Virus record (IMG/VR): IMGVR_UViG_3300045988_006728
Reading direction: 5' to 3' (one strand)
Source of the DNA: a virus
Taxonomy: Duplodnaviria; Heunggongvirae; Uroviricota; Caudoviricetes
DNA length: 64,000 nucleotides
Below the pieces are notes generated by a model. That model was not told the DNA's origin, did not search any database, and saw only the letters and a program-made list of their open reading frames with translations. Below, piece by piece: positions 807-5,115 of this stretch. Numbering within the stretch: position 1 is the first letter of the stretch; each line of letters opens with the position of its first letter. Position numbers and translations under genes: made by a program.

Positions 807-2222
807 ATGAGCGAATTATTCAAACATGCGCACCTTCATGCAGGTCGAACTGAAAATGGTGCTGTAAACCATACTTCATCAATGTCTGCTCTTGTAGACT
901 TTTACAAAGCTGCTGGTTCAAGCCGTAGCAACGTAGAAATCTTACCAGACCTGTTCTACAAAGCTTTGCGTGAGGATGTTGATGTTGCAGTTCGTATTTT
1001 GCTTCATATGCGAGATGTACGAGAAGGTATGGGTGAGCGTAAAGCCTTCAGAACTGTTTTACTTCAAGCGATTGAAGACAAAGTTTTAGAGCCTACGCAG
1101 GTTCTTCGCATTATGGATAAGATTGCAGAACTTGGTCGTTTTGATGACTTCAAAATCTTCGTAGGTACTCGTTTCGAGACAGATGCCTTCAAACATCTAG
1201 AAGCAGCATTACTAGACCCTGCAACAGCAGGTTTGGCGGCTAAGTGGTTACCACGAGTCAAACCACGTCATAAGCAGTTTGTAAAACGTTTCTGCAAGTT
1301 TGCCAACTTGAGTGAGAAAGAGTACCGCACACTGTTGTCTGCACTATCTGATACAGTTGAGCAAAAAATCTCTGCTAATGAGTTTGGTAAGATTGACTAC
1401 AGTAAGATTCCTTCACTTGCTGCTGCACGTTACCAAAAACTGTTTAACCGCAAAGATGGAGAACGCTACAAAGCTTACATCGAGTCCTTATCAAAGGGTG
1501 AGGCTAAGATTAATGCTGGTGCTGTTTACCCATACGATGTAATTAAATCTGTTAAGCATGGTAATGCAGATGTTGCTAATGAGCAGTGGAAAGCACTACC
1601 AAACTGGATGGCAGAGGGTGAAAACATCTTGTGTATGTCTGATGTTTCAAGCTCAATGTCTTGGGTGAATTTTGGTTCAATTACTGCTCTTGATATTGGT
1701 GTTTCACTTGCATTGTATGTAGCAGAACGTAATACAGGTTGCTTTAAGAATGAGTTGATGGTTTATTCAACAAACCCTCACTTCATCGAACTGAGTGGTG
1801 ATTTACGAAACCGTAATCGTCAGGTGATGCGACACGTTGAATATGGCTCAACTAACTTACAAGCAGCTTTTGACCGCATTCTTGAGATAGGTAAGAGAAA
1901 CAACTTGACTCAGAAAGATATGCCAAGTAAGCTTATCATCTTCTCCGATATGGAGTTCAATCAGGTTGATGGGGCTAACGGTCGTACAAACTTTGAAGCA
2001 ATTCAGAGTAAGTACAAAAAAGCTGGATACGAAATGCCTCAACTGGTATTCTGGTACTTAGCAAACCGTAATGGTACTTGCGAAGTGTCTGTTAAGGATA
2101 ACGGTGTAGCAATGGTATCTGGTTTTTCTCCAGCTACTTTAAAAGCTCTGCTTGGTGGTGAGAAGTTTGACCCAATCAGCGTAATGCTCAAAGCAGTAAT
2201 GATTGACCGTTATATCTGGTAA
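807..2222 (+). CDS. vWA-domain protein with MIDAS motif (D-V-S-S-S); possible TROVE/Ro60-like RNA-binding protein
   Basis: 471-aa ORF; DxSxS at ILCMSDVSSSMS about residue 276 with hydrophobic beta-strand context; helical N-terminal domain beginning TENGAV...LVDFYKAAGS, loosely like the Ro60 N-terminus as recalled. Confidence 0.45.
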   Translation: MSELFKHAHLHAGRTENGAVNHTSSMSALVDFYKAAGSSRSNVEILPDLFYKALREDVDVAVRILLHMRDVREGMGERKAFRTVLLQAIEDKVLEPTQVLRIMDKIAELGRFDDFKIFVGTRFETDAFKHLEAALLDPATAGLAAKWLPRVKPRHKQFVKRFCKFANLSEKEYRTLLSALSDTVEQKISANEFGKIDYSKIPSLAAARYQKLFNRKDGERYKAYIESLSKGEAKINAGAVYPYDVIKSVKHGNADVANEQWKALPNWMAEGENILCMSDVSSSMSWVNFGSITALDIGVSLALYVAERNTGCFKNELMVYSTNPHFIELSGDLRNRNRQVMRHVEYGSTNLQAAFDRILEIGKRNNLTQKDMPSKLIIFSDMEFNQVDGANGRTNFEAIQSKYKKAGYEMPQLVFWYLANRNGTCEVSVKDNGVAMVSGFSPATLKALLGGEKFDPISVMLKAVMIDRYIW

Positions 2223-2556: not shown

Positions 2557-2628
2557 CAGAAGACCAATTACAGCAAACTTAATCTACTCATCTGACACGA
2601 AATCGGACAAAGAAGATATTTGGTCTGG
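2557..2628 (+). ncRNA. Structured inter-tRNA element, unit 1 (A box CAGAAGACC ... B box GGTCTGG); candidate Y RNA-like stem-loop
   Basis: AGACC of the A box pairs with GGTCT of the B box; conserved TaCAGCAA follows the A box; same framing repeated at three other sites. Confidence 0.35.
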
Positions 2629-2722: not shown

Positions 2723-2782
2723 CAGAAGACCGTATTCAGCAACAAAATACTTTTTGCGGATAAAAGAAAAAACACGGTCTGG
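2723..2782 (+). ncRNA. Structured inter-tRNA element, unit 2 (A/B box framed)
   Basis: CAGAAGACCgtaTtCAGCAA at 2723 and GGTCTGG at 2776; the inner helix shows compensatory changes relative to unit 1. Confidence 0.35.
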
Positions 2783-3050: not shown

Positions 3051-3111
3051 ATTTTGAGAGGGCTATTTAGCCCCTCCCTTAAAGGGTTCTTACGAGTATC
3101 CTTTAAAGGAG

Positions 3112-3184
3112 CAGAAGACCAAATACAGCAAGAACGTATGAAATTTCAAGCCAATTTAATTTTGAAAATTTAAACTTGGTCTGG
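3112..3184 (+). ncRNA. Structured inter-tRNA element, unit 3a (A/B box framed)
   Basis: CAGAAGACCaaaTaCAGCAA at 3112 and GGTCTGG at 3178. Confidence 0.35.
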
Positions 3185-3197
3185 CTCAACAAATTTA

Positions 3198-3329
3198 CAG
3201 AAGACCGTTTACAGCAAAACTTAAACAATCTATTTCTCCGGTAAAGAAAAGGCGAAGGTTCGATTCCTTCACTCGGCAGATGTCGAGTTGGTGTAATGGT
3301 AGCACTTAAGATGATAAACAACGGTCTGG
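3198..3329 (+). ncRNA. Structured element, unit 3b, with internal tRNA-mimic domain; candidate YrlA-like Y RNA
   Basis: A box at 3198 and B box at 3323 frame a T-arm (gaagg-ttcgatt-ccttc, 3254-3270), a 7-bp acceptor-like helix closed by a 4-nt loop (actcggc-agat-gtcgagt, 3271-3288) and a D-arm (gtg-taatggtag-cac); there is no anticodon arm. Confidence 0.4.
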
Positions 3330-3330
3330 T

Positions 3331-3474
3331 AATTATCTTTGTAGATAAGTTATTAAGCTTACCTGTGAGTATGCGACCACAAAGGGTGAAAGGGTAAATT
3401 CTAGATTTAAACCCAAAAAGGCACATCGCTACAGACCTTAAGCAAGTCTGGGTAGCTTATCTACAAAGATAATT
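3331..3474 (+). repeat. Perfect 19-bp inverted repeat (AATTATCTTTGTAGATAAG) flanking a 106-bp structured segment
   Basis: 3331-3349 is the exact reverse complement of 3456-3474; the interior holds further hairpins (cagac-N8-gtctg); ends 4 nt before tRNA-Lys. Confidence 0.6.
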
Positions 3475-3478
3475 TAAT

Positions 3479-3554
3479 GGAAGTGTAGCAGAATGGTGAT
3501 GCGGCAGACTTTTAATCTGACAGGCGATGGGTTCGAATCCCTCCACTTCTACCA
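3479..3554 (+). tRNA. tRNA-Lys (anticodon TTT)
   Basis: Anticodon loop cttttaa, D-loop aatggtga, T-loop ttcgaat, acceptor ggaagtg/cacttct, CCA; paralog of the tRNA at 5201. Confidence 0.7.
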
Positions 3555-3712: not shown

Positions 3713-3723
3713 ATTTCAATAAA

Positions 3724-3759
3724 GTTGTTGACATTGAGATGTGACTACTTTATAGTAAC
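3724..3759 (+). promoter_or_regulatory. Sigma70-like promoter (TTGACA-17-TATAGT)
   Basis: Strong -35/-10 match; followed by about 230 nt of structured non-coding sequence before tRNA-Arg. Confidence 0.5.
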
Positions 3760-4393: not shown

Positions 4394-4662
4394 TAATAAG
4401 ATTTAAAGCCAAGCTTCATTCGGATGTTGCTTTGGTATCCCTCGTGTATTGTCGTACACGCACAGTAAAGCACCTAGTAGGTGTCACGGAGAAGAGATAA
4501 TATCAAGCTCTCCAAAGGTTCTAGTCACCGGATTAAACAAGACTATGCAAAGACCTTTTTAGGTCTTTTTAGAGGGCTTCTAAGGTTATTACAGCTTGTT
4601 GTGGAACCTTGTTGCTTAGGTTCTTAGAAGTTCTCTAAAAAGATTTAATGGGAGATTGACAT

Positions 4663-5115
4663 ATGGCACGTAGCAGTTTGACTAAAGATATTCTTGAACC
4701 TTTAGTAAAGGGTTCAGTATCATTCAGAGAAGTGCTTATAAAGCTTGGGAGAAAACCATCAGGTGGTTCTCAGTCACATCTAAAGCGTGTTATAGAGAAG
4801 TTTGAAATAGACACTTCTCATTTCCTCGGACAAAAGGCTGGTAAGATTAAAACTGTACCAAAAAGAAAGCCTGAAGAAATCTTAATTCTACGTGAATCTG
4901 GTGAAAGAGCAAGGTCTTCACAACTAAGAAGAGCTTTAATAGCATCTGGTATCGAATACAAATGCTCTAAATGCGGTCAGTTACCGGAGTGGTTGGGCAA
5001 CCCTCTAACTCTTGATGTTGACCACATTAATGAGAACTGGTTAGATGATAGAAAAGAGAATCTTCGGTTCTTATGTCCAAATTGCCACAGTCAATTCTCA
5101 AGGCATTTGATTTAA
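4663..5115 (+). CDS. HNH homing endonuclease inside the tRNA array
   Basis: 150-aa ORF with C-terminal HNH signature DVDHINENW...RFLCPNCHSQ; stop codon lies 2 nt before the next tRNA. Confidence 0.7.
   Translation: MARSSLTKDILEPLVKGSVSFREVLIKLGRKPSGGSQSHLKRVIEKFEIDTSHFLGQKAGKIKTVPKRKPEEILILRESGERARSSQLRRALIASGIEYKCSKCGQLPEWLGNPLTLDVDHINENWLDDRKENLRFLCPNCHSQFSRHLI

What the first reader, a model, noticed from the sequence alone, without database searches (positions are those of the whole stretch)
3331..3474. Perfect 19-bp inverted repeat enclosing a 106-bp structured segment
AATTATCTTTGTAGATAAG at 3331-3349 is the exact reverse complement of 3456-3474. The enclosed segment has further hairpins, including cagac-N8-gtctg, which resembles the A/B-box pairing. 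The element ends 4 nt before tRNA-Lys. It could be a small RNA, a processing structure, or a miniature inverted-repeat element.
Basis: seen in the sequence. Interest (0 to 1): 0.5.

Follow-up and report, generated by a model that had tools for sequence, protein, structure and literature searches.

The report
Conserved long-stem RNA in phage tRNA array
The inverted repeat is the closing stem of a conserved, roughly 144-base structured RNA gene in the tRNA cluster of a Felix O1-type phage, lying beside tRNA-mimicking "Y RNAs" and a Ro60-like protein gene, so it is probably another RNA of that little-understood system and not a mobile element.

Summary
The 19-bp perfect inverted repeat (3331-3349 / 3456-3474) is real. 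It is the longest local inverted repeat in the window, and as RNA it extends to a 24-bp helix. The window is a Felixounavirus.

The element is single-copy and sits at one fixed locus, ending 4 nt before tRNA-Lys(UUU), in about 250 Ounavirinae genomes. It occurs there in two diverged forms. A positional counterpart exists in Yersinia phage P778. Between these forms the stem keeps pairing through double changes and G·U wobbles that work only on the + strand. It is therefore an RNA helix, not the terminal repeats of a MITE.

The context is the main result:
- ORF 807-2222 has the Ro60 fold.
- Four repeats of a Y-RNA-like stem (CAGAAGACC…UNCAGCAA…GGUCUGG) lie among the tRNAs.
- One of them (3198-3330), directly abutting the finding, is a YrlA-type permuted tRNA mimic.

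The finding's inner hairpin (3432-3450, loop CUUAAGCAA) looks like a miniature of that stem motif and is the feature best conserved in P778.

Best reading, at moderate confidence: it is a further Y-like RNA ligand of the phage Ro60-like protein, cut out of the tRNA precursor. The function is untested. It has no Rfam match, and I found no description of it in the literature I could search.

The parts
3331..3354 (+). 5' strand of the closing helix. It comprises the 19-nt perfect repeat arm 3331-3349 plus 5 further pairs, 3 of them G·U.
   Evidence: Covariation against the DE7-type, SUSP-type and P778 forms.
3451..3474 (+). 3' strand of the closing helix. It ends 4 nt before tRNA-Lys(UUU).
3359..3389 (+). 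Inner hairpin P2. It is predicted by folding only. Its sequence differs strongly between the two Ounavirinae forms, apart from a shared UGAGU..GC.GA stretch.
3392..3414 (+). Inner hairpin P3. Its apex AUUCUAGAUU (TTCTAGATT at 3399-3407) is invariant in both Ounavirinae forms and contains the palindrome UCUAGA.
   Evidence: In the DE7-type form the lower stem shows 4 pairs with compensatory changes.
3420..3430 (+). Small 3-bp hairpin, predicted by folding only and weakly supported.
3432..3450 (+). Inner hairpin P4: CAGAC / GUCUG with the 9-nt loop CUUAAGCAA. Its 3' strand runs straight into the closing helix. It resembles a miniature of the neighbouring Y-like stem motif (AGACC…UNCAGCAA…GGUCUG).
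   Evidence: The stem covaries: CAGAC/GUCUG, CAAACC/GGUUUG and, in P778, AAAGUC/GACUUU. The loop CYUWAGCAA is conserved.
3198..3330 (+). Context: a YrlA-type Y RNA (permuted tRNA mimic) directly abutting the finding. Order 5' to 3': 5' stem strand, UACAGCAA, CUAU, V arm, T arm, closed 7-bp acceptor-like stem, D arm, 3' stem strand GGUCUGG.
   Evidence: Architecture as described in PMC4201824 and bioRxiv 10.1101/312249.
3112..3184 (+). Context: a short Y-like module C (CAGAAGACCAAAUACAGCAA … UUGGUCUGG).
2557..2628 (+). Context: a short Y-like module A, between tRNA-Glu and tRNA-Met.
2723..2782 (+). Context: a short Y-like module B, between tRNA-Met and tRNA-Asn.
807..2222 (+). Context: gene for a Ro60-fold protein of 471 aa (helical-repeat ring plus vWA domain; Pfam DUF2828 + DUF7788).
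3479..3554 (+). Context: tRNA-Lys(UUU). Cleavage by RNase P at its 5' end would define the 3' end of the element.
   Evidence: The same adjacency is seen in Yersinia phage P778.

Best explanation
The repeat is the closing helix of a ~144-nt structured non-coding RNA on the + strand. It is transcribed as part of the phage's first tRNA operon (inferred).

The RNA consists of a 24-bp terminal helix closing a multi-branch loop. That loop carries three main hairpins, P2, P3 and P4, plus a small, weakly supported fourth.

The surrounding RNA-protein system comprises:
- a Ro60-fold protein gene (807-2222);
- four Y-RNA-like modules interleaved with the tRNAs;
- among them a YrlA-type tRNA mimic that ends where this element begins.

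Most likely mechanism, all steps inferred:
1. RNase P cuts at the 5' end of tRNA-Lys, 4 nt downstream, and frees the element from the polycistronic precursor.
2. RNase III may also cut within the long duplex.
3. The terminal helix stabilises the released RNA.
4. The P4 hairpin presents the same 'stem + …AGCAA' signature that closes the neighbouring Y-like RNAs, and so docks the phage Ro60-like protein.
5. The conserved P3 and P2 loops contact a second partner, as the effector modules of known Y RNAs do.

Shown here: the structure, its strand, its conservation, its immobility and its genomic context.
Inferred, not shown: transcription, processing, protein binding and function.
For: Structure and strand:
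- The fold has z = -6.2.
- On 12 Ounavirinae sequences, 98.5% of cells pair, against 32-46% when partners are slid. Five pairs change on both sides.
- P3 has 4 compensatory pairs.
- Against the P778 counterpart, 15 of 24 stem positions differ on both sides and still pair. Each diverged form has 3-4 G·U pairs, which would be A·C mismatches on the other strand or in DNA.
- No ORF is conserved on either strand.

Fixed locus:
- 190 records carry one form and 60 the other, together 250 of 252 records with the spacer. Each has one copy at the same place.
- In P778 an element with 21-nt arms also ends 4 nt before tRNA-Lys(UUU).

Context:
- The model of ORF 807-2222 has pLDDT 90. Its 11 best PDB matches are all Ro60/Rsr, including phage phiLo Ro60.
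- At sequence level it is homologous to mycobacteriophage 'Ro-like RNA binding proteins'.
- A covariance model of 3198-3330 finds full-length matches beside homologous genes, always on the gene's strand. There were 50 matches at E<0.01 across the window and 75 distant loci, two of them in the window itself. It also matches the RNA beside the Ro-like gene of mycobacteriophage Snenia at 70.5 bits.
- On that family alignment, 26 of 29 pairs covary.

Link of the finding to that family:
- The pattern AGACC-N0-4-TNNAGCAA occurs 6 times in the window against 0.22 expected. Five occurrences are the four Y-like stems and P4.
- The P4 loop CYUWAGCAA and its position abutting the closing helix are conserved in P778, while its stem covaries.
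- Long terminal helices of 21-27 bp also close Y-like RNAs in L038 and P778.

Operon setting:
- Promoter-like sites lie at 2241-2269 and 2332-2361. The next is at 3728-3756. No terminator is predicted at the element.
Against: - The P4 loop has A or U where the Y-like family has an invariant C (UNCAGCAA versus UUAAGCAA / UUUAGCAA). The match is a resemblance, not an identity.
- The models of the Y-like family (R1, R3) do not hit 3331-3474.
- The element's own model finds nothing beside Ro60-like genes outside Ounavirinae. The P4 pattern occurs only in Ounavirinae and P778, whereas the protein occurs in 710 phage records.
- In P778 the element is not next to a YrlA-like RNA. Adjacency to tRNA-Lys is the conserved feature.
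- Salmonella phage SP116, deposited as a complete genome, lacks the element and half of the YrlA-like RNA. If that record is from a propagated isolate, which I did not check, the element is dispensable in culture.
- The canonical Ro60-binding motifs (GGUCCGA; GNCGAAN0-1G) are absent.
- There are no expression or binding data.
Confidence: 0.45

Rival explanations
1. It is only a processing or insulating structure. The ~24-bp perfect duplex is an RNase III site, or an exonuclease block, that separates the Y-RNA segment from tRNA-Lys/Met/Ile in the precursor. The enclosed 100 nt have no function of their own.
For: - The duplex is at least 22 bp and uninterrupted. By established knowledge of E. 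coli RNase III, recalled and not tested here, that is the length class it cleaves.
- It lies between two sets of RNAs that need processing, 4 nt from a tRNA 5' end, in both the window and P778.
- A second long hairpin lies further along the same array, at about 4559-4648.
- SP116 lacks the element.
Against: - The inner loops are conserved more strictly than a spacer needs. The P3 apex AUUCUAGAUU and the P4 loop are invariant across both Ounavirinae forms.
- P4 is kept with stem covariation out to P778.
- The P3 stem is maintained by compensatory changes.
Confidence: 0.25
2. It is an independent structured RNA unrelated to the Ro60-like system. Examples would be a trans-acting regulator that uses its conserved loops, a decoy, or a ligand for a host dsRNA-binding or tRNA-binding protein. 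On this view its resemblance to the Y-like stem motif is coincidental.
For: - No hit from the Y-like models.
- Its distribution is narrower than that of the Ro60-like gene.
- The conserved neighbour is tRNA-Lys(UUU), not the YrlA-like RNA.
- The loops are conserved and partly palindromic.
Against: - P4 matches AGACC-N0-4-TNNAGCAA, a pattern expected 0.22 times in 64 kb. Five of its six occurrences cluster within 900 nt of the tRNA array.
- Related phages also close Y-like RNAs with helices of 21-27 bp.
- The element always lies in the array downstream of the Ro60-like gene, on the same strand.
Confidence: 0.2
3. It is a miniature inverted-repeat transposable element inserted next to tRNA-Lys.
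For: A perfect 19-bp terminal inverted repeat flanks about 106 bp, next to a tRNA gene, which is a common integration target.
Against: - There is one copy in the window and one per genome, always at the same locus, in 250 genomes.
- No empty site was found. The only absence, in SP116, is a larger deletion between two T-arm sequences.
- There are no direct repeats at the ends.
- In other genera the arms carry G·U-type differences and double compensatory changes.
Confidence: 0.02
4. It is a DNA-level signal, such as a cruciform, a protein-binding palindrome or a replication or packaging site.
For: - The repeat is perfect in the window's form.
- Each arm is itself internally palindromic (TTATCT-N4-AGATAA), by direct reading.
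Against: - In the other form and in P778 the arms are imperfect as DNA but pair fully as + strand RNA through G·U.
- The internal palindromes are absent from the DE7-type and P778 arms.
- The covarying inner hairpins have no DNA-level rationale.
Confidence: 0.03

Closest known systems
Bacterial and phage Y RNAs (Ro60/Rsr-associated ncRNAs: D. radiodurans Yrn1, S. Typhimurium YrlA/YrlB, Thermus phage phiLo Yrl1/Yrl2). Sources: PMC4201824, bioRxiv 10.1101/312249, PMC12135203.
   Same: - It is encoded on the same strand within about 1.1 kb of a Ro60-fold gene.
- It is about 100-150 nt long.
- Its 5' and 3' ends pair into a long terminal helix that encloses a module of stem-loops.
- Several such RNAs occur per locus.
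- Its immediate neighbour (3198-3330) has the YrlA architecture.
   Different: - The published Ro60-binding signatures (GGUCCGA; GNCGAAN0-1G; CGAA in a bulge of the terminal stem) are absent.
- The only candidate binding signature is in an internal hairpin loop (P4), not in the terminal helix.
- The terminal helix is an uninterrupted 24-bp duplex without the usual bulges.
- Binding has not been tested.
YrlA, the tRNA-like Y RNA
   Same: Applies to the neighbour, not to the finding. Window 3198-3330 has, in order, CUAU, a V arm, a T arm (GAAGG UUCGAUU CCUUC), a closed 7-bp acceptor-like stem, two nucleotides, and a D arm with the loop AAUGGUA. That D loop is identical to the one in S. Typhimurium YrlA.
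   Different: The finding itself (3331-3474) has no T arm or D arm and is not hit by the YrlA-like models. The phage family also carries UNCAGCAA where GNCGAAN0-1G is expected.
Small stable RNAs and RNase III sites embedded in phage tRNA clusters (T4 species 1 and 2 RNAs; RNase III processing of the T4 tRNA precursor). Recalled from the classical literature and not checked here.
   Same: It is a structured non-tRNA RNA transcribed within a phage tRNA array and released by tRNA-processing enzymes.
   Different: No sequence or structural similarity was tested or found, and the function of the T4 RNAs is likewise unknown.
MITEs
   Same: A short element bounded by a perfect terminal inverted repeat.
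   Different: It is single-copy and orthologous, has no target duplication, and its arms evolve as an RNA helix.

Membership tests
Y RNA (Ro60-associated ncRNA) | Encoded close to a Ro60 orthologue (within about 4 kb) and on the same strand | tested here: met
   The Ro60-fold ORF 807-2222 (+) ends 1.1 kb upstream of the element, which is also on +.
Y RNA (Ro60-associated ncRNA) | A long helix formed by the 5' and 3' ends, enclosing a second module | tested here: met
   A 24-bp terminal helix encloses three main hairpins and is supported by covariation.
Y RNA (Ro60-associated ncRNA) | A Ro60-binding sequence in the terminal helix (GGUCCGA, GNCGAAN0-1G or CGAA bulge) | tested here: not met
   No such motif is present in 3331-3474 by direct reading. 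Only the P4 loop CUUAAGCAA resembles the local family's UNCAGCAA.
Y RNA (Ro60-associated ncRNA) | Physical association with the Ro60 protein | not testable with these tools
   This needs immunoprecipitation or gel-shift assays with the 807-2222 protein.
YrlA (tRNA-like Y RNA) | A T arm, a closed acceptor-like stem and a D arm, in that order, between the strands of the terminal helix | tested here: not met
   Models R1 and R3 give no hit on 3331-3474. The feature is met by the adjacent 3198-3330, at 154 and 127 bits.
MITE / mobile element | Multiple copies, or presence/absence polymorphism with precise empty sites | tested here: not met
   There is one copy in the window and one per genome at one locus in 250 of 252 genomes. 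The only absence is a larger deletion between T arms.
MITE / mobile element | Target-site duplication flanking the terminal repeats | tested here: not met
   The flanks are ...GGTCTGGT | element | TAATGG..., with no direct repeat.
Intrinsic terminator | A short G+C-rich hairpin followed by a run of U | tested here: not met
   No terminator-like site is reported at 3331-3478. The stem is A+U-rich, with 96 nt enclosed between its strands, and three tRNAs follow before the next promoter-like site.
RNase III processing stem | Roughly two turns (at least about 20 bp) of uninterrupted dsRNA | tested here: met
   24 contiguous pairs in the window and 23 in the other forms.
RNase III processing stem | Cleavage by RNase III in vivo or in vitro | not testable with these tools
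   This needs end mapping in rnc+ and rnc- hosts.
Any Rfam 15 family | A match to a curated covariance model | tested here: not met
   There is no hit on 3331-3474 even at E <= 10.

The most novel reading that the evidence does not exclude
The element is a new architectural class of Ro60-partner RNA. In it the protein-docking signature sits in an internal hairpin (P4) stacked on a long perfect duplex. The duplex and the conserved P3 loop act as an effector arm, for example by recruiting or decoying a host dsRNA-directed or tRNA-directed nuclease. This would couple the phage Ro60-like ring to maturation or protection of the adjacent tRNA-Lys(UUU), a tRNA known to be targeted by host anticodon nucleases.
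Probability: 0.12. Interest if true: 0.75.

Novelty: new variant of a known kind. Interest (0 to 1): 0.5.

Why it matters
Ro60 and Y RNAs are conserved from bacteria to humans, but what they do in bacteria and phages is largely unknown.

This locus shows that Felix O1-type phages carry a Ro60-fold gene followed by an array of Y-like RNAs threaded between tRNAs. These are classical, easily handled phages of Salmonella and E. coli. The array includes a YrlA-type tRNA mimic, which some GenBank records annotate as tRNA-Thr, and this extra long-stem RNA.

If the long-stem RNA is a further Ro60 ligand, it widens the known range of Y-RNA architectures. It would also provide a genetically tractable system: natural deletion variants already exist, and well-studied hosts are available. 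That system could be used to ask what a viral Ro60-RNA particle does during infection. Even if the element is only a processing signal, it is a conserved, unannotated RNA feature of about 250 sequenced phage genomes.

Tried and rejected
1. Permuted tRNA gene needing circularisation, or a permuted group I intron-exon arrangement. I considered this when I saw the T arm and acceptor 3' strand (3254-3279) lying upstream of the acceptor 5' strand and D arm (3282-3305). It was dropped because this is exactly the published YrlA layout. There was also no group I intron hit, and the 'anticodon' loop varies (CCGGUAA, CUGGUAA, and a 6-nt form).

2. Two-piece tmRNA. ARAGORN finds none, and the acceptor-like stem has no G3·U70 pair.

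3. tRNA-Thr(GGT) of 129 nt, as annotated in some records. The proposed 5' acceptor strand pairs at only 5 of 7 positions, whereas the downstream strand pairs at 7 of 7 and covaries.

4. Protein coding. The 107-aa ORF on the - strand (3103-3426) and the small + strand ORFs are not conserved in relatives.

5. MITE.

6. Terminator.

7. Homologues of the element beside Ro60-like genes in 75 distant phages. None was found with model R2. A strict P4 pattern search found it only in Ounavirinae and P778.

8. A target for the P3 loop elsewhere in the window. None was found beyond the element itself.

9. Direct sequence similarity of the protein to solved Ro60 structures. None was found by phmmer; the fold search was needed.

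10. Two reviews on bacterial Y RNAs could not be read, and the supplementary tables of Chen et al. 2014 are not held. I therefore cannot exclude that Felix O1-like phages were already in their list of 22 phages.

Full report
**1. The observation**

The sequence at 3331-3349 (AATTATCTTTGTAGATAAG) is the exact reverse complement of 3456-3474. The repeat finder extends it to 22 nt at 95%. As RNA the two sides form 24 contiguous pairs, 3331-3354 with 3451-3474, of which 21 are Watson-Crick and 3 are G·U.

This is not a chance feature:
- It is the longest local inverted repeat in the 64-kb window.
- The arm sequence occurs nowhere else in the window, even with 3 mismatches.
- The 144-nt RNA folds at -47.8 kcal/mol, against -26.6 ± 3.4 for shuffles.

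tRNA-Lys(UUU) begins at 3479, 4 nt after the repeat. One detail needs correcting: the inner hairpin is CAGAC-N9-GTCTG (3432-3436 / 3446-3450), not N8.

**2. Where the window comes from, and how the element is distributed**

The window is a Felixounavirus, a Felix O1-like myovirus of Salmonella and E. coli. The 428-nt spacer between tRNA-Asp (ends 3050) and tRNA-Lys is present in 252 phage records.
- The 144-nt element in the window's form is found in 190 records at 94% identity or more, essentially one place per record.
- A second, strongly diverged form (the 'DE7-type') occupies the same position in 60 further records from Felixounavirus, Suspvirus and Mooglevirus.
- Together that is 250 of the 252 records. 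I found no extra copies and no precise empty site.

The one absence examined is Salmonella phage SP116. It has a larger deletion whose ends lie in two similar T-arm sequences. The deletion removes half of the upstream RNA, the element and most of tRNA-Lys.

There are no direct repeats at the element's ends. This rules out a MITE.

**3. It is an RNA helix on the + strand**

I aligned 12 distinct Ounavirinae sequences and scored the closing helix plus two inner helices.
- 98.5% of cells pair, against 32-46% when the partners are slid by 1-3 columns.
- Five pairs change on both sides, four in the closing helix and one in P4. None do so in the slid controls.

Within the DE7-type form, the lower stem of hairpin P3 has four pairs with compensatory changes.

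The diverged forms carry 3-4 G·U pairs in the closing helix. These pair only if the + strand is read as RNA. Most single changes within the window's form are also wobble-compatible on that strand, 5 of 7, though that ratio is not significant on its own.

No reading frame on either strand is conserved among relatives. No Rfam family matches, even at E <= 10.

**4. A counterpart in a more distant phage**

Yersinia phage P778 has a Ro60-like protein 53% identical to the window's. It carries an inverted repeat with 21-nt arms enclosing 120 nt. This repeat also ends 4 nt before tRNA-Lys(UUU).

Its predicted fold has the same plan:
- a closing helix of about 23 bp;
- inner hairpins;
- a last hairpin, AAAGUC-CCUUAGCAA-GACUUU, whose 3' strand runs directly into the closing helix.

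I indexed both closing helices from the base, which is an assumption about register. On that basis 15 of 24 positions differ on both sides between the window and P778 and still pair.

The 9-nt P4 loop is the most conserved feature: CUUAAGCAA in the window, CUUUAGCAA in the DE7-type and CCUUAGCAA in P778.

A covariance model of the element found nothing convincing beside homologous genes in 75 more distant phages.

**5. The surroundings: a Ro60-like gene and Y-RNA-like modules**

*The protein.* ORF 807-2222 (471 aa) matches Pfam DUF2828 and DUF7788, with a weak vWA match, and PHROG 850 'RNA-binding protein'.
- An AlphaFold model built on 48 homologues has mean pLDDT 90.3.
- Its 11 best matches in the PDB are all Ro60/Rsr, over the full length. 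They include X. laevis Ro, D. radiodurans Rsr and Thermus phage phiLo Ro60. Isolated vWA domains follow.
- tblastn finds homologues in 710 phage records. These include mycobacteriophage genes annotated 'Ro-like RNA binding protein', at about 34% identity and E around 1e-72.

*The YrlA-like neighbour.* Directly upstream of the finding, 3198-3330 reads, 5' to 3':
- CAGAAGACCGUU-UACAGCAA;
- a spacer ending in CUAU;
- a 5-bp stem-loop;
- a T arm (GAAGG UUCGAUU CCUUC);
- a closed 7-bp stem (ACUCGGC-AGAU-GUCGAGU);
- UG;
- a D arm (GUGU AAUGGUA GCAC);
- AACGGUCUGG, which pairs with the 5' end.

This is the published architecture of YrlA, the tRNA-mimicking Y RNA. Its order is Ro-binding strand, V, T, closed acceptor-like stem, D, 3' strand. 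It is found within 4 kb of Ro60 on the same strand (PMC4201824; bioRxiv 10.1101/312249). The latter paper prints the S. Typhimurium sequence, which has the identical D loop AAUGGUA.

The acceptor-like stem covaries among relatives: ACUCGGC/GUCGAGU, ACACGUU/GGCGUGU and ACCCUUC/GAAGGGU.

A covariance model of this module, then an iterated one, gave 50 matches at E<0.01 across the window and 75 distant loci, two of them in the window itself.
- All are on the gene's strand.
- Most lie within a few hundred nucleotides of the gene.
- 26 of 29 pairs covary, with the caveat that the alignment was fitted to the model.
- The model also hits the RNA 100 nt downstream of the Ro-like gene of mycobacteriophage Snenia, at 70.5 bits.

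*The repeated stem motif.* The same stem signature, CAGAAGACC-NNN-U(A/U)CAGCAA … NNN-GGUCUGG with the NNN covarying, occurs four times in the window:
- 2557-2628
- 2723-2782
- 3112-3184
- 3198-3329

Each copy lies in a gap between tRNAs. In the distant phages the stem sequence varies freely, but U-N-C-A/C-G-C-A-A after its 5' strand is conserved. This takes the place of the published GNCGAAN0-1G motif.

**6. How the finding connects to that system**

The P4 hairpin (3432-3450) reads AGACC-UUAAGCAA-GUCUGG. That is the Y-like stem signature with nothing inserted.
- The pattern AGACC-N0-4-TNNAGCAA has 6 matches in 64 kb against 0.22 expected.
- Five of them are the four Y-like stems and P4.
- The sixth lies inside a coding region and has no partner strand.

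Long closing helices also occur in this RNA family. In a 183-kb phage contig (L038), a second tandem YrlA-like RNA is closed by a 21-bp helix. In P778, a 27-bp helix encloses a Y-like stem just after the Ro60-like gene.

On this basis I read the finding as a further RNA of the Ro60-like system, with P4 as the candidate protein-docking site. The limits of this reading are:
- P4 has A or U where the family has an invariant C.
- The family models do not hit the element.
- In P778 its conserved neighbour is tRNA-Lys, not a YrlA-like RNA.
- Binding is untested.

**7. Expression and processing (inferred)**

Strong promoter-like sites lie at 2241-2269 and 2332-2361, upstream of the first tRNA. The next lies at 3728-3756, after tRNA-Ile. 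No terminator-like site is reported at the element. The element is therefore most simply part of one precursor running from tRNA-Pro to tRNA-Ile.
- RNase P cleavage at the 5' end of tRNA-Lys would leave the element with a 4-nt 3' tail.
- The YrlA-like stem strand ends at 3329, and the element starts at 3331 with essentially no spacer. The two may persist as one two-domain RNA unless the long duplex is cut.
- A 24-bp uninterrupted duplex is in the size range that E. coli RNase III cleaves. This is established knowledge and was not tested here.

A pure processing role is the main rival. The strict conservation of the P3 and P4 loops argues against it.

**8. Comparison with what is known, and novelty**

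The element works most like a Y RNA, in that it has a terminal helix plus an effector module and lies beside Ro60. It fails one defining feature, a recognised Ro60-binding sequence in the terminal helix. Another defining feature, physical binding, cannot be tested here. I therefore do not file it as a Y RNA. I call it a probable new variant.

The neighbouring 3198-3330 does meet the structural definition of YrlA, except for the motif.

In the searchable literature, no paper that names Felix O1 or Felixounavirus also mentions Ro60, TROVE or Y RNA. The term DUF2828 appears in five papers, none of which, by title and abstract, concerns phage Ro60 or Y RNAs. The phage Y RNAs named there are from mycobacteriophages, CcrColossus, Bacillus phage G and phiLo. 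I could not read the supplementary phage list of Chen et al. 2014, so prior listing of Felix O1-like phages cannot be excluded.

**9. Verdict**

The MITE reading is rejected. The element is a conserved, unannotated, structured RNA.
- Confidence that it is an RNA-level structure on the + strand is high, about 0.9.
- Confidence that it is a ligand of the phage Ro60-like protein is moderate to low. I give the whole best explanation 0.45.
- Interest is moderate. The single hairpin is not surprising in itself. The system it belongs to, in a classical and tractable phage, is worth a specialist's attention.

Noticed in passing
window 3198-3330: A YrlA-type permuted tRNA mimic: V arm, T arm, closed 7-bp acceptor-like stem and D arm inside a Y-like stem. 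Some GenBank records annotate part of it (about window 3150-3278) as a 129-nt 'tRNA-Thr-GGT' called by tRNAscan-SE, which appears to be a misannotation. Its 'anticodon-like' loop varies among relatives: CCGGUAA, CUGGUAA, or 6 nt.
   Followed up: yes
window 2557-2628, 2723-2782, 3112-3184, 3198-3329: Four copies of a stem motif, CAGAAGACC-NNN-U(A/U)CAGCAA … NNN-GGUCUGG, with covarying NNN. Each fills a gap between tRNAs. They look like short Y-like RNAs comparable to YrlB. GGTCTGG occurs 13 times in the window against 3.7 expected.
   Followed up: partly
window 807-2222 (+): The 471-aa DUF2828/DUF7788 protein has the Ro60 fold (helical-repeat ring plus vWA domain). It has homologues in 710 phage records, from hosts including Mycobacterium, Vibrio, Listeria, Staphylococcus, Campylobacter, Enterococcus, Bacillus and Aeromonas. 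In most Felix-like records it is annotated only as hypothetical, vWFA or RNA-binding protein.
   Followed up: yes
window 3057-3111: Two hairpins right after tRNA-Asp (GAGAGGGC-UAUUUA-GCCCCUC and CCUUAAAGGGUUCU-UACG-AGUAUCCUUUAAAGG) are almost invariant across three genera. One G-C to A-U compensatory change is present (GGG/CC changing to GAG/UC). Their function is unknown.
   Followed up: no
window ~4551-4648: A second long hairpin (about 27 bp, z = -5.4) lies just upstream of the HNH endonuclease ORF (4663-5115). At its start is a small terminator-like hairpin, AAAGACC-UUUUU-AGGUCUUUUU. It gave weak microRNA-precursor hits in Rfam, which simply reflect a long hairpin.
   Followed up: partly
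L006 (Salmonella phage SP116) 580-610: A natural deletion joins the T arm of the YrlA-like RNA to the T arm of tRNA-Lys (…GAAGGTTCGATTCCCTCCACTTCTACCA…). It removes the 3' half of the YrlA-like RNA, the whole inverted-repeat element and most of tRNA-Lys. These parts may therefore be dispensable for growth in culture.
   Followed up: partly
L004 (Citrobacter phage HP1) ~794-921: In this phage the acceptor-like stem of the YrlA-like RNA is replaced by ACCCUUC-GCCAAACA-GAAGGGU. This encodes a discriminator plus CCA directly after the 3' strand. The V arm region also differs. It recalls M. smegmatis YrlA, which is cut by RNase P and receives CCA.
   Followed up: no
L038 6140-6302; L103 6647-6838; L016 9092-9206: Other phages with a Ro60-like gene also have RNAs closed by helices of 21-27 bp in or beside their tRNA / Y-like arrays. 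In L038 the helix encloses a second YrlA-like RNA. In P778 (L103) it encloses a Y-like stem (GGACUG-AUUACCGCAA … CAGUCC).
   Followed up: partly
window 3333-3348 and 3457-3472: In the window's form only, each arm of the repeat is itself a small palindrome (UUAUCU-N4-AGAUAA). Two short hairpins could therefore form as an alternative to the long helix. This is absent from the DE7-type and P778 arms.
   Followed up: no
window 3714-3758: A near-consensus promoter (TTGACA-17-TATAGT, 3728-3756) lies right after tRNA-Ile and is embedded in an imperfect inverted repeat (3714-3728 / 3744-3758). It probably starts the next tRNA transcription unit.
   Followed up: no
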